Origin: Eledone cirrhosa
Taxonomy: Eukaryota
DNA length: 64,000 nt
Assembly (NCBI GenBank): GCA_964016885.1
Contig: OZ024747.1
Span: forward strand, 64,480,001-64,544,000
Direction of reading: 5' to 3'
Shown: positions 48,000 through 53,811 of the stretch, piece by piece
Numbering within the stretch: position 1 is the first letter of the stretch
Layout of the letters: each line of letters opens with the position of its first letter
Translations under genes and position numbers: made by a program
Notes under the pieces: generated by a model
What the model was told of the DNA's origin: nothing
Seen by the model: only the letters and a program-made list of their open reading frames with translations
Databases searched by the model: none

Positions 48000-48970
48000 A
48001 CTTTAGTCGACTTTAGAATCTACATATAGTGCATATAAGAGAATAGCAGGATTTGTGGTTTGATCGAATATTAGATCACCAGATAGAATATTAGATGGCC
48101 AGAGTTCCTTATACCATCATGGCAAACAATTCTCAATTTTCCACTGGCTGCAGATAGGGCGTCAAAGGAAGGTAAACGTATGTCCACAGATTTAAATTCT
48201 ACTTTAGTTTGCCATTGTATCTGAGAAGTAGTCTGCTATATAACAGTAACTTGCGTGTGCCATGTTCTATCTCATTTGAACTTTGCTGGTATTGACTTTT
48301 TTGTAAAAATTAAAGCATACTATTTTATTATTGAATAAGGTTTCCAAATCTTCAGGTACCAAATACATCACTTTCATCAACATCCATGTATCTAGAGTGA
48401 GAAGCGATGTTCATAGATTCTGATTACAAAAAATAGTTTTCGATATATCTGCTGGTGATGGTAATATCTGATTCCATTAGATAATTTATGATTTACAATG
48501 AATTCGCATTTCATAGCTTAATTTTAGTCATTGTCAGTGTATTAACGCTCATTGGGCCATATAGATTAATTATATATTTCCAAACCACTTTTTGAACGTG
48601 AAACATGCAATTTAATGCATTTTCCAAATTAGAAATGATTCACAGATTTTATTATAAAATTACAAAAAAAAATCATTTCAAAAGTTTTTAATTCAATGTT
48701 GCTGAACTAATGGAATATATTTCGTTATATCGAATCATTTATTATCAAAATCTAAATCACCTTTCATGAATAACTTCATTTCAATTTCCGTATAAATGAT
48801 GTCACAATTATCTCGCTGTTAAATCAAAACGCTATTTTTAAATCGCACAAACATATTAAATGGATACTGAATACATCAGATCCCACATACTGCTTATTTC
48901 ATGTTTTCAACTTCATCCAAATGAATCCTTTAATTTATATTCTGATGCAAAACCATTTGCATTAGGTGCA
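48000..48970 (+). pseudogene. Possible degraded Gypsy/Ty3 pol (RT-RNaseH) remnant
   Basis: LHPNESFNLYSDAKPFALGA resembles RNaseH F.LYTDAS..A.GA; scattered VDFR and LGHI-like fragments upstream. Confidence 0.35.
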
Positions 48971-51900
48971 AACATGGCTGGGTGTTCAGTGAATTTCCCA
49001 ATCCAAACAGGTGTTGGCGAGTTCTCTTCTTCCACAGTATGCCAACTTGTATTTTACTGCAACGTTGCATTGATTGATGGTTTGTGAGCGAATATTGCAT
49101 CACGGAAAATGTAGCAGCTTGCCGTATATATATATATGTATATATATATATATATATATATATATATATATATAGAAATATATTCTACAGGATTATAACT
49201 GTTTCATTCAAAGGAAATCATCAGGAAAGCCCATTTCTATATTAACCATGATGTTTACACTAATAATGTATTGTGTAACTTACGTAATGGGGTTACTTCC
49301 GATTGAACCCGGGACTCACACACATACATATACTGTAGTACACATTTGGTATACATATCCATGCGCTTTGAGCACTCTGTCCATAGGAAGAGTTATGTAT
49401 AATTAGTTACAACAGCGACATGTACTTACGTTTCCTTCGATTATTCACCCCAACCCATTCAGAATGTCATAAGATTAAAAATGGCTTCCATCCGTGGAAA
49501 TCTAAAATAATAGAAGCGTTCTAAAAGTAGGTAAACCCAAAATTATCTATAACTAGACAAATATCTTAAATAAGGTATGTGTCTAGCTATAAAAACTGTC
49601 GGGATTACCTATCCTTAGAATTCTTTTATACTATCTAAATACATGCTGGGAAGCAATTCTCATGAGAGGCGGATTTAGATTCGGGTGAATAACGCAACGA
49701 ATTTTAAGTACCTATACACGTCACTATTGTAATTATACACACACACACACACATATATATATATATATACATATATATATATATATATATATATATATAT
49801 ATATGTATATATATATATATATATATATATATATATATATATATATATGTATATATATATATGTATATATATATATGTATATATATATATATATATGTAT
49901 ATATATATATATATGTATATATATATATATATATGTATATATATATATATATGTATATATATATATATATATATATTATATATATATATATATTTATATG
50001 TATATATATATATATAGTATATATATATATATATATATGTATATATATATATATATGTATATATATATATATATATATATATATATATATATTTTATTAT
50101 GTATATATATATATGTATATATATATATGTATATATATATATATATATGTATATATATATATATATATGTATATATATATATATGTATATATATATATAT
50201 ATTATGTATATATATATATAGTATATATATATATATATGATATATATATATATATGTATATATATATATATATATATATATATATATATATATATATATA
50301 TATATATATATATAATATGTATATATATATATATATGTATATATATATATATGTATATATATATATATGTATATATATATATATGTATATATATATATAT
50401 ATATATATATATGTATATATATATATATATGTACATATATATATACATATATATATATACATATATATATATATATATACATATACATATATATATATAC
50501 ATATATATATATACATATATATATATCATATATATATATATATATATATATATATATATATATATATATATATATATATATATATATATATATATATATA
50601 TTATATATATATATATGTGTATATATATATATATATATATATATGTATATATATATATTATATATATATATATATACATATATATATATATATATATATA
50701 TATACATATATATATATATACATATGTATATATACATATATATATATATATATATATGTATATGTATATATTTATATATATATATATGTATATGTATATA
50801 TATATATATATATATATTATATATATATATGTATATATATATATATATATATATATATATATATATATGTATATGTATATTTATATATGTATATATATAT
50901 ATGTATATATATATGTATATATATATATGTATATGTATATATATATATATATGTATATATATATATGTATATATATATATATATATATATATATATGTAT
51001 ATATATGTATATATATATATATATATATATATGTATATATATATACATATATATAATATATATATATATATACATATATATATATATAATATGTATATAT
51101 ACATATATATATATATATATATGTATATGTATATATTTATATATATATATATGTATATATATATATATATATATATATATATATATAGTATATTATATAT
51201 GTATATAGTATGTATATATATATATAGTATATATATATATAGATATATATATATATATATATATGTATATATATATATGTATATATATATATATATATAT
51301 ATATATATATATATATATATGTATATATATGTATATATATTATATATATATATATATATATATATATATATGTATATATATGTATACATATATATATATA
51401 TATATATATATATATGTATATATATATATATATATATATATAATATATATAATATATATATATATATATGTATATATATATATATATATATATATATATA
51501 TATATATATATATATGTGTATATATATATATATATATATATATATATATATACATATATATATATATATATATATATATATATACATATATATATATATA
51601 TATATGTATATATATATATATATATATATATATATACATATATATATATATATATATGTATATATATATATATATATATATATATATATATATATACATA
51701 TATATATATATATATATGTAATTAAATCTACCAAGAGTTTACGGTAGTGTCCAATCCGTATGAAGAACTCAATGTAATCCGGATATCATGGAAAGAAGAG
51801 ATGCAATGAAAAATCACTTTCGGTGAAAGATAAACGGAATACAGAGTCAAGATAAAATATTAAAAAAATAATGAATAAAACAATGAAACAGTTCCTTATA

Positions 51901-53811
51901 TTAAACAAAAAAAAGTTCATTATTTAACGATCGTTTCTGGGATATATATGTGTTAGAATTGGCATGTTTATTTAATTTTGATAGTTTGTATAATTTTGTA
52001 TAATTTTGTACATAGATATGTTAAATATACATGCCAATTCTAACACATATATATCCCAGAAACGATCGTTAAATAATGAACTTTTTTTGTTTAATATAAG
52101 GAACTGTTTCATTGTTTTATTCATTATTTTTTAAATATTTTATATATATATATATATATGTATATATATTATATATATTATATATATATATGTATATGTA
52201 TATGTATATATGTATATATATGTATATGTATATGTATATATATATATATATATATATATATATGTATATGTTATATGTATATATATATATATATATGTAT
52301 ATGTATATGTATATATATATATATATATGTATATATATATATATATATATATGTATATGTATATATATATATATATATGTATATGTATATGTATATATAT
52401 ATATATATTATGTATATATATATATATATATGTATATGTATATATATATATATATATATATATATATATATATGTATATGTATATATATATATATATATA
52501 TGTATATGTATATATATGTATATATATATATATATATATATATATATATATGTATATGTATATATATATATATATACATATGTATATATATGTATATATA
52601 CATATATATATATATATATATATATGTATATGTACATATATATATATATATATATATATGTATATGTATATATATATATATATATATATATATATATGTA
52701 ATATGTATATATATATATATATACATATGTATATATATATGTATATGTATATATATATATATATATATATATGTATATATATATATATATATATATATAT
52801 ATGTATATATATATATATATATATATATATATATATGTATATATATATATATATATATATATATATATACATATATATATATATATATATATATATACAT
52901 ATATATATATATATATATACATATATATATACATATATATATATATATATACATATATATATACATATATATATACATATATATATACATATATATATAT
53001 ATATATATATATATATATATATATGTATATGTATATATATATATATATATATATGTGTGTGTGTGTGTGTATAATTACAATAGTGATGTGTATAGGTACT
53101 TAAAATTCGTTGCGTTATTCACCCGAATCTAAATCCGCCTCTCATGAGAATTGCTTCCCAGCATTTATTTAGATAGTATAAGAGAATTCTAAGGATAGGT
53201 AATCCCGAAAGTTTTTATAGCTATACACATACCTTATTTAAGATATTTGTCTAGTTATAGATAATTTTGGGTTTACCTACTTTTAGAACGCTCCTATTAT
53301 TTTAGATTTCCACGGATGGAAGCCATTTTTAATCTTATGACATTCTGAATGGGTTGGGGGTGAATAATCGAAGGAAACGTAAGTACATGTCGCTGTTGTA
53401 ACTAATTATACATAACTCTTCCTATGGACAGAGTGCTCAAAGCCCATGGATATGTATACCAAATGTGTACTACAGCATATACATATATGTGAGTCCCGGG
53501 TTCAATCGGAAGTAACCCCACTACGTAAGTTACACAATACATTATTAGTGTAAACATCATGGTTAATATAGAAATGGGCTTTCCTGATGATTTCATATAT
53601 ATATATATATATATATATATATATACATATACATATATATATATATACGGCAAGCTGCTACATTTTCTGTGATGCAATATTCGCTCACAAACCATCAATC
53701 AATGCAACGTTGCAGTAAAATACAAGTTGGCATACTGTGGAAGAAGAGAACTCGCCAACACCTGTTTGGATTCGGAATTCACTGAACACCCAGCCATGTT
53801 TGCACCTAATG
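48960..53811. repeat. ~4.85-kb nested inverted repeat: arm A-(TA)n-family B hairpin-(TA)n-arm A'
   Basis: 48960-49750 is mirrored by 53055-53811 with few substitutions and one internal deletion; inner mirror 51855-51967 / ~52030-52140; centre near 52000. Confidence 0.9.
49752..51720. repeat. ~2-kb interrupted (TA)n microsatellite (other long TA-rich tracts at 38510-39170, 52140-53055, 54988-55412, 55915-56215)
   Basis: Direct observation. Confidence 0.97.

What the first reader, a model, noticed from the sequence alone, without database searches (positions are those of the whole stretch)
48960..53811. 4.85-kb giant palindrome that appears to have duplicated flanking DNA in inverted orientation
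Seen: the mirror extends from the family B stem II centre (~52000) through kilobase (TA)n tracts, through other repeat pieces (family E, 49180-49320), and into ~165 bp of unrelated flank (48960-49125). The arms differ by scattered substitutions, an internal deletion and TA length (~2 kb against ~0.9 kb). Inference: snap-back synthesis or 3' read-through copied neighbouring DNA, so these elements could generate inverted duplications and cruciform-prone fragile sites.
Basis: partly seen in the sequence, partly recalled or inferred. Interest (0 to 1): 0.7.

Follow-up and report, generated by a model that had tools for sequence, protein, structure and literature searches.

The report
Inverted duplication fused to truncated LINE
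About 1 kb of DNA beside a long TA repeat is present again as a backward copy joined directly to the stub of a jumping gene, likely a known kind of break-repair scar made when that jumping gene cut the TA repeat, while the small palindrome in the middle is an ordinary element that likely did not cause it.

Summary
The inverted duplication is real, but it is not one 4.85-kb mirror. About 0.7 kb of non-TA DNA (single-copy A plus old repeats E and B) is repeated backwards at 2.0% divergence, with derived changes on both arms. The TA variants stop mirroring at 52838-52869, so about 2.85 kb is unmirrored spacer. The central element is an ordinary Penelope-like inverted pLTR insertion: its missing 134 bp is the family's normal end (25 of 31 two-armed copies), and 0 of 30 testable copies mirror their flanks. 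Most likely the LINE cut the TA tract, the other end folded back in TA, copied leftwards and was joined to the cDNA, as described for human L1 (0.5). A LINE-independent fold-back is the main rival (0.35). No second case was found in 100 LINE copies. Read support was inconclusive. The scan has noted TA-anchored fold-backs elsewhere in this genome. Known kind of event, modest interest.

The parts
48960..49124 (+). A: single-copy DNA, inferred original copy; a 7-bp hairpin (48945-48962) sits at its left edge
   Evidence: hairpin read, may be chance
49125..49183 (.). short TA tract (59 bp), mirrored by 53595-53647
49184..49320 (-). E: dispersed repeat with hammerhead-like core words (CUGAUGA ... 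GAAAC) read by eye; complete here, 34 bp missing in the right arm
   Evidence: not found by the descriptor scan, no stable fold
49321..49737 (+). B: old degenerate palindromic repeat family
49738..51720 (.). (CA)7 plus 1.97-kb G-polar TA tract; only its outer ~250 bp is mirrored
51721..52140 (.). C1: Penelope-like inverted pLTR insertion, tail on the left, centre collapsed, short arm ending at the family's usual position
52141..52837 (.). inner right TA tract, G-polar, not mirrored (spacer)
52838..52869 (.). inferred fold-back point: switch from G- to C-polar TA
52870..53594 (-). inverted copy: C-polar TA, (TG)7, B' and E' with the 34-bp deletion
53595..53811 (-). inverted copy: short TA and A'
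53811..53935 (+). 5'-truncated 3' end (122 bp) of a young TA-targeting LINE with APE and RT domains, fused directly to A'
53936..54297 (.). LINE tail and G-polar TA tract, inferred other half of the target
54298..54985 (.). neighbouring full palindrome of the same Penelope-like family, with a type I hammerhead motif; used as reference

Best explanation
The locus holds a local inverted duplication of about 1 kb whose inner end lies in a TA tract and whose outer end is fused to a 5'-truncated LINE, and it likely formed in one germ-line event when the LINE cut the TA tract and the other DNA end folded back. Shown: the two arms, the change of TA polarity at 52838-52869, the direct A'-LINE junction, and the standard anatomy of the central element. 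Inferred: the LINE endonuclease cut the long TA tract; the right end primed a short cDNA; the left end was resected, its TA 3' overhang annealed to TA further left on the same strand (TA is self-complementary), and a host polymerase copied TA, B, E, TA and A backwards to 48960; this strand was then joined to the cDNA through imperfect microhomology. The Penelope-like element C1 lies in the uncopied loop, either already there or inserted later, and the TA tracts have since changed length by slippage.
For: Junction: 107 of 114 family hits start at the A' end and continue upstream as LINE in other copies; the family has APE and RT domains and 3174 exact 37-mer hits. 70 of 100 sampled copies have TA at the 5' junction, here A' stands in its place. 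G polarity continues on both sides of the insert (44 G:4 C left, 39 G:5 C right), and polarity is uniform within most tracts beside LINEs. In-register homeology of A' with LINE sequence just upstream of the junction, 15 of 25 bases, is matched or beaten at 24 of 4486 other LINE positions. Ages are compatible: 15 substitutions in 734 columns between arms; 2 adjacent private substitutions in 121 bp of the LINE piece. Left arm as original: E is complete there, its TA has the ancestral polarity, and the breakpoint coincides with the LINE end only on the right. The same geometry is described for human L1 (bioRxiv 10.1101/2024.12.14.628481 Fig. 4A, D, E, section read; PMC10191854, 3 cases, 0.3%, passage).
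Against: 0 of 100 sampled LINE copies show a fold-back of single-copy flank at the 5' junction (95% upper bound 3%). Two look-alikes that I first counted as parallels (L209, L207) proved to be repeat families. Only 5 of 100 copies are 200 bp or shorter, so a 122-bp stub is unusual for a primary insertion and fits trimming of a longer copy as well. No target-site duplication can be read in TA. The human cases are shorter (52-220 bp) or have small hairpins, against about 1 kb and a large present-day loop here. TA polarity also flips in a few 100-bp bins of the left tract, so the fold point is approximate.
Confidence: 0.5

Rival explanations
1. LINE-independent fold-back or template switch at the TA tract. 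A fork or break end switched strands between TA stretches, copied A-E-B backwards, and returned by microhomology into a LINE copy that was already there, deleting its 5' part; or the LINE inserted later with deletion of the outer part of the copy.
For: Gives the same final sequence. The homeology lies upstream of the junction, so longer LINE sequence was present at joining. The stub is shorter than most sampled copies (median 1454 bp; 5 of 100 at 200 bp or less). No coupled case in 100 copies. Earlier scan notes report TA-anchored fold-backs without a LINE in this genome (unchecked). Fold-back at any break is known in yeast (PMC11724301, abstract).
Against: Needs two events of similar age at one site, and a return point about 1.3 kb into a typical copy, or a deletion at insertion. 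Nothing measured excludes it.
Confidence: 0.35
2. One reading: the Penelope-like element snapped back at its centre and second-strand synthesis ran on through its own end into the flank.
For: The element lies between the arms, and both its arms share one rare variant (51939/52057; 1 of 56 and 1 of 29 family copies). PLEs form inverted structures and capture host DNA (PMC3846280, passages).
Against: The shared variant is expected for any inverted pLTR. The short arm stops at the family's usual base; 700 bp of unmirrored G-polar TA follows; 0 of 30 testable two-armed copies mirror flanks while the window control scores 97% over 141 bp. C1 has only 1-2 private substitutions in 408 bp, no older than the arms.
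Confidence: 0.07
3. Assembly artefact: a fold-back chimeric read, or two haplotypes joined in opposite orientation through self-complementary TA.
For: Kilobase TA tracts are hard to assemble. No contig of three public runs covered A'.
Against: Substitutions outnumber indels (15 substitutions, 10 transitions, including two CpG-type changes); family outgroups place 7 derived states on the left arm and 5 on the right, 1 unresolved, 2 without outgroup; the mirror ends at a non-TA junction with a LINE and the contig carries on. An artefact would need two false joins.
Confidence: 0.05

Closest known systems
L1 insertion with inverted duplication on the reciprocal end (bioRxiv 10.1101/2024.12.14.628481, Fig. 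4A, D, E; section 9 and passages read)
   Same: Flank, then inverted copy of the flank, then 5'-truncated LINE, then tail; self-annealing of a 3' overhang by microhomology (TA/AT in their Fig. 4D).
   Different: Here germ-line and about 1% old per arm, a non-L1 LINE that targets TA tracts, fold point inside a microsatellite, large loop, no readable target-site duplication.
Short foldback inversion 5' of somatic L1 target sites (PMC10191854; one passage read)
   Same: Inverted duplication upstream of the target, 3 cases (0.3%), ascribed to extra host DNA synthesis.
   Different: 52-220 bp there, about 1 kb here; somatic human.
5' extra nucleotides copied from flanks in zebrafish L2-clade LINEs (PMC4245944; passages read)
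   Same: Flank-derived sequence and microhomology at LINE 5' junctions.
   Different: The passages speak of several extra nucleotides; kilobase inverted copies were not seen in what I read.
Endonuclease-bearing Penelope-like elements with inverted pLTRs and an optional tail (PMC8557442, PMC3846280; passages read)
   Same: C1 and its family: head-to-head inverted pLTRs, tail at one end, TA targets, linked ORF with RT-like YRDD and GIY-YIG-like motifs, hammerhead motif.
   Different: Tail is 134 bp rather than 30-40 bp and hammerhead stem II is about 115 nt; clade not determined.
Local fold-back inverted insertions at double-strand breaks in yeast (PMC11724301; abstract read)
   Same: Fold-back synthesis at one end, end joining at the other.
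   Different: Mostly 5-34 bp, no retroelement.

Membership tests
LINE insertion with fold-back inverted duplication | 5'-truncated LINE with intact 3' end and tail | tested here: met
LINE insertion with fold-back inverted duplication | inverted copy of upstream target DNA abuts the LINE 5' end | tested here: met
LINE insertion with fold-back inverted duplication | microhomology at the inversion point | tested here: met
   fold point lies in pure TA, which is self-complementary
LINE insertion with fold-back inverted duplication | target-site duplication linking the two breakpoints | tested here: inconclusive
   target is TA; only matching G polarity can be read
LINE insertion with fold-back inverted duplication | LINE and duplication arose in one event (empty allele lacks both) | not testable with these tools
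   no relatives held; read laying gave no usable answer; ages only compatible
Penelope-like element (central element C1) | inverted or tandem pLTRs with tail at one end | tested here: met
   31 of 70 loci two-armed, 25 ending at the same base
Penelope-like element (central element C1) | linked ORF with RT followed by GIY-YIG endonuclease with two internal cysteines | tested here: inconclusive
   motifs seen by eye in P0001, about 3.9 kb from the pLTR in several co-linear loci; Pfam 0 of 3 proteins; atlas neighbours carry PF26215, one cluster GIY-YIG in 48% of members
Penelope-like element (central element C1) | type I hammerhead in the pLTR | tested here: met
   descriptor match in the neighbouring full copy at 54638, minus strand; long stem II folds with z -4.3; no hammerhead among the 150 of 245 Rfam rows shown; core half deleted in C1; cleavage untested
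Perfect giant palindrome centred on the element | continuous mirror symmetry from the centre outwards | tested here: not met
   700 bp of TA with direct, not mirrored, polarity

The most novel reading that the evidence does not exclude
Probability: 0.12. Interest if true: 0.6.

Novelty: new member of a known kind. Interest (0 to 1): 0.3.

Why it matters
If the coupled model holds, this is a germ-line, invertebrate example of a repair outcome so far seen by me only in papers on human somatic and experimental L1 insertions, and it shows how a TA microsatellite can supply the fold-back primer. It also shows a practical trap: palindromes that seem centred on a mobile element can be nests in self-complementary TA, and the G/C variant polarity of the tract locates the real fold point. 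No host gene was seen nearby, so a functional effect is not indicated.

Tried and rejected
Rfam scan of 44000-64000 gave only sub-threshold miRNA-type hairpin matches in the 150 rows shown. DNA search with the C arm returned nothing because its words are too common; an exact 32-mer gave 4681 hits. Pfam did not recognise the PLE ORFs. k-mer sharing between TA tracts was too noisy to use beyond the polarity counts. L209 and L207 looked like second and third cases of a fold-back fused to a truncated retroposon but their arms are repeat families (at least 670 and 1030 candidates); L213 is a family palindrome also seen in L222. All three are dropped. The 17 other apparently low-copy inverted pairs in 1.46 Mb are unreliable for the same reason: copy number came from my small sample only. 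Of the 15 LINE loci with an inverted hit, 9 were inspected (with 4 further loci); L112, L118, L121, L194, L197 and L222 (21-32-bp hits beyond a TA tract) were not inspected there. Reads: three public contig sets gave zero depth on A' although two hold 0.70 and 0.64 of the words of 48300-49122; the tool warns that a filter drops records, so this shows nothing. One RAD run has about 3 reads on 53776-53809 that start at an AATT site present in both arms; they show A-type sequence in that sample but not the junction. Read support for the left junction remains open. Literature searches that found nothing: octopus + LINE + Penelope + microsatellite + palindrom (0 papers); foldback + inverted duplication + TA repeats + microsatellite + retrotranspos (0 papers). 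Supplements were not read.

Full report
Setting. The window is G000:C7:64480001-64544000 of a 3.0-Gb animal genome, 31% GC with many TA tracts. Earlier scan notes call the genome a likely octopus; I did not test that. No host gene was evident: stop-free frames of 130 aa or more were few and the recognisable ones looked like old LINE pieces.

Observation. The arms exist. A (48960-49124) and A' (53648-53811) differ by 2 substitutions and 1 indel; the E+B block by 13 substitutions and a 34-bp deletion on the right. In total there are 15 substitutions (10 transitions) in 734 aligned columns, 2.0%. A and its left flank have no hit outside the window. B has hundreds of relatives, at most 78% identical over about 230 bp. 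So this is a local duplication and not two insertions. Family outgroups put 7 derived states on the left arm and 5 on the right, with 1 unresolved and 2 lacking an outgroup, which is what independent ageing of two real copies gives.

The mirror is not continuous. TA pairs with itself, so I used the G/C interruptions. Left tract 73 G:20 C, inner right tract 44 G:4 C, then a switch between 52837 and 52870 to 0 G:8 C, which mirrors 8 G:0 C at 49800-49960; tracts further right are again G-polar (39:5 and 32:0). Tracts beside other LINE copies mostly keep one polarity. The duplicated arm is therefore about 48960-49960 against 52850-53811, and about 2.85 kb is spacer. A few 100-bp bins of the left tract are C-polar too, so this is good but not absolute evidence.

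The central element. An exact 32-mer of it has 4681 hits. In 70 loci taken from the first 100 hits on contig C1, 31 were two-armed, and 25 of these end at the same base as C1, followed by TA; collapsed centres are common. The missing 134 bp is thus the family's one-sided tail, as described for Penelope-like elements (PMC8557442 and PMC3846280, passages). One-armed copies run on for about 5 kb into an ORF with a YRDD motif and a GIY-YIG-like core with two cysteines, read by eye; Pfam gave no hit, the atlas gave related unnamed clusters, one with GIY-YIG in 48% of members. The neighbouring full copy matches a type I hammerhead descriptor. None of 30 testable two-armed copies has mirrored flanks, with the window as positive control; TA polarity was the same on both sides in 5 of 5 informative copies, 26 being uninformative. 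C1 carries 1-2 private substitutions in 408 bp, so it is no older than the arms; the order cannot be fixed.

The outer junction. The sequence right of A' is the last 122 bp of a 4.5-kb LINE with APE and RT domains, 3174 exact 37-mer hits. Of the first 100 copies on C1, 70 have TA at the 5' junction. Here A' joins the LINE directly. Just upstream of the joint, A' and the missing LINE sequence agree at 15 of 25 bases in register; 24 of 4486 other LINE positions and 3 of 761 other positions along A and its flank score as well. The LINE piece has 2 adjacent private substitutions, compatible with the age of the arms. A 7-bp hairpin at 48945-48962 marks where the copy stops; it could be a stall site or chance.

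Mechanism. This order of parts is the one drawn for human L1 insertions with inverted duplication on the reciprocal end (bioRxiv 10.1101/2024.12.14.628481, section 9 read) and counted at 0.3% in normal colon (PMC10191854, passage). I infer that the LINE cut the TA tract, the left 3' overhang annealed to TA on its own strand, host synthesis ran back to 48960, and the strand was joined to the short cDNA. The coupling is not shown. In 100 LINE copies I found no second case; the candidates L209, L213 and L207 fell when their arms proved to be repeat families. With an expected rate under 1% this test is weak (upper bound 3%). The stub is also unusually short (5 of 100 copies are 200 bp or less), which fits a template switch returning into an older LINE equally well. 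I give 0.5 to the coupled event and 0.35 to a LINE-independent fold-back; both share the core of a TA-primed fold-back with the Penelope-like element as passenger (about 0.85).

Reads. Public runs did not settle reality or polymorphism: no contig depth on A' in three contig sets, about 3 non-diagnostic RAD reads. The left junction has no read check.

Literature seen: passages of PMC8557442, PMC3846280, PMC10191854, PMC4245944, PMC13282606; passages and section 9 of bioRxiv 10.1101/2024.12.14.628481; abstracts of PMC11724301 and bioRxiv 10.64898/2026.07.22.740005. Two searches for this combination in TA repeats or octopus returned no paper; the library lacks most subscription papers. That long TA tracts can extrude cruciforms is recalled, not tested.

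Verdict. A real, ordinary-sized fold-back inverted duplication in a nest of TA-targeting retroelements; a new member of a known kind; interest 0.3.

Noticed in passing
window 54298-54985: Full palindrome of the same Penelope-like family with the tail on both arms, seen in 0 of 31 other two-armed copies. Its left arm is identical to family copies while its right arm carries about 9 rare changes in 333 bp, as if one arm was made by error-prone fold-back synthesis.
   Followed up: partly
family of window 54298-54985: Type I hammerhead motif with an unusually long stem II (about 115 nt) and a minimal stem III capped by a palindromic tetraloop; not among the Rfam rows shown.
   Followed up: partly
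L182:5331-5556: 76-bp inverted pair (98.7%) around a TA/CA spacer, one arm joined through 16 bp of TA to the tail end of a C-family element; possible fold-back at a Penelope-like insertion. Genome copy number of the arm not checked.
   Followed up: partly
L221:141-4504: About 1.1-kb inverted arms at 98% around a 2.3-kb spacer, right end at a TA tract; copy number not checked genome-wide.
   Followed up: no
L127, L137, L205 (LINE 5' junctions): Short rearranged or duplicated pieces of the LINE itself between the TA target and the 5' truncation point.
   Followed up: no
L141:1426-9885: Two 99.6% identical LINE copies head to head around 1.2 kb of TA, with different truncation points.
   Followed up: no
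window 1-1317: 471-bp tandem repeat, 2.8 copies at 98%, followed by a perfect 120-bp palindrome centred on (TA)23 at 1320-1439.
   Followed up: no
window 14730-16029, 16095-16354, 28930-29905, 31329-32166, 35496-35814, 37266-37543, 61293-61599: Further palindromes or inverted pairs of 0.3-1.3 kb, several TA-flanked, probably other Penelope-like families.
   Followed up: no
window 56214-56597: Older E-type and C-type fragments on either side of a short TA-centred palindrome.
   Followed up: no
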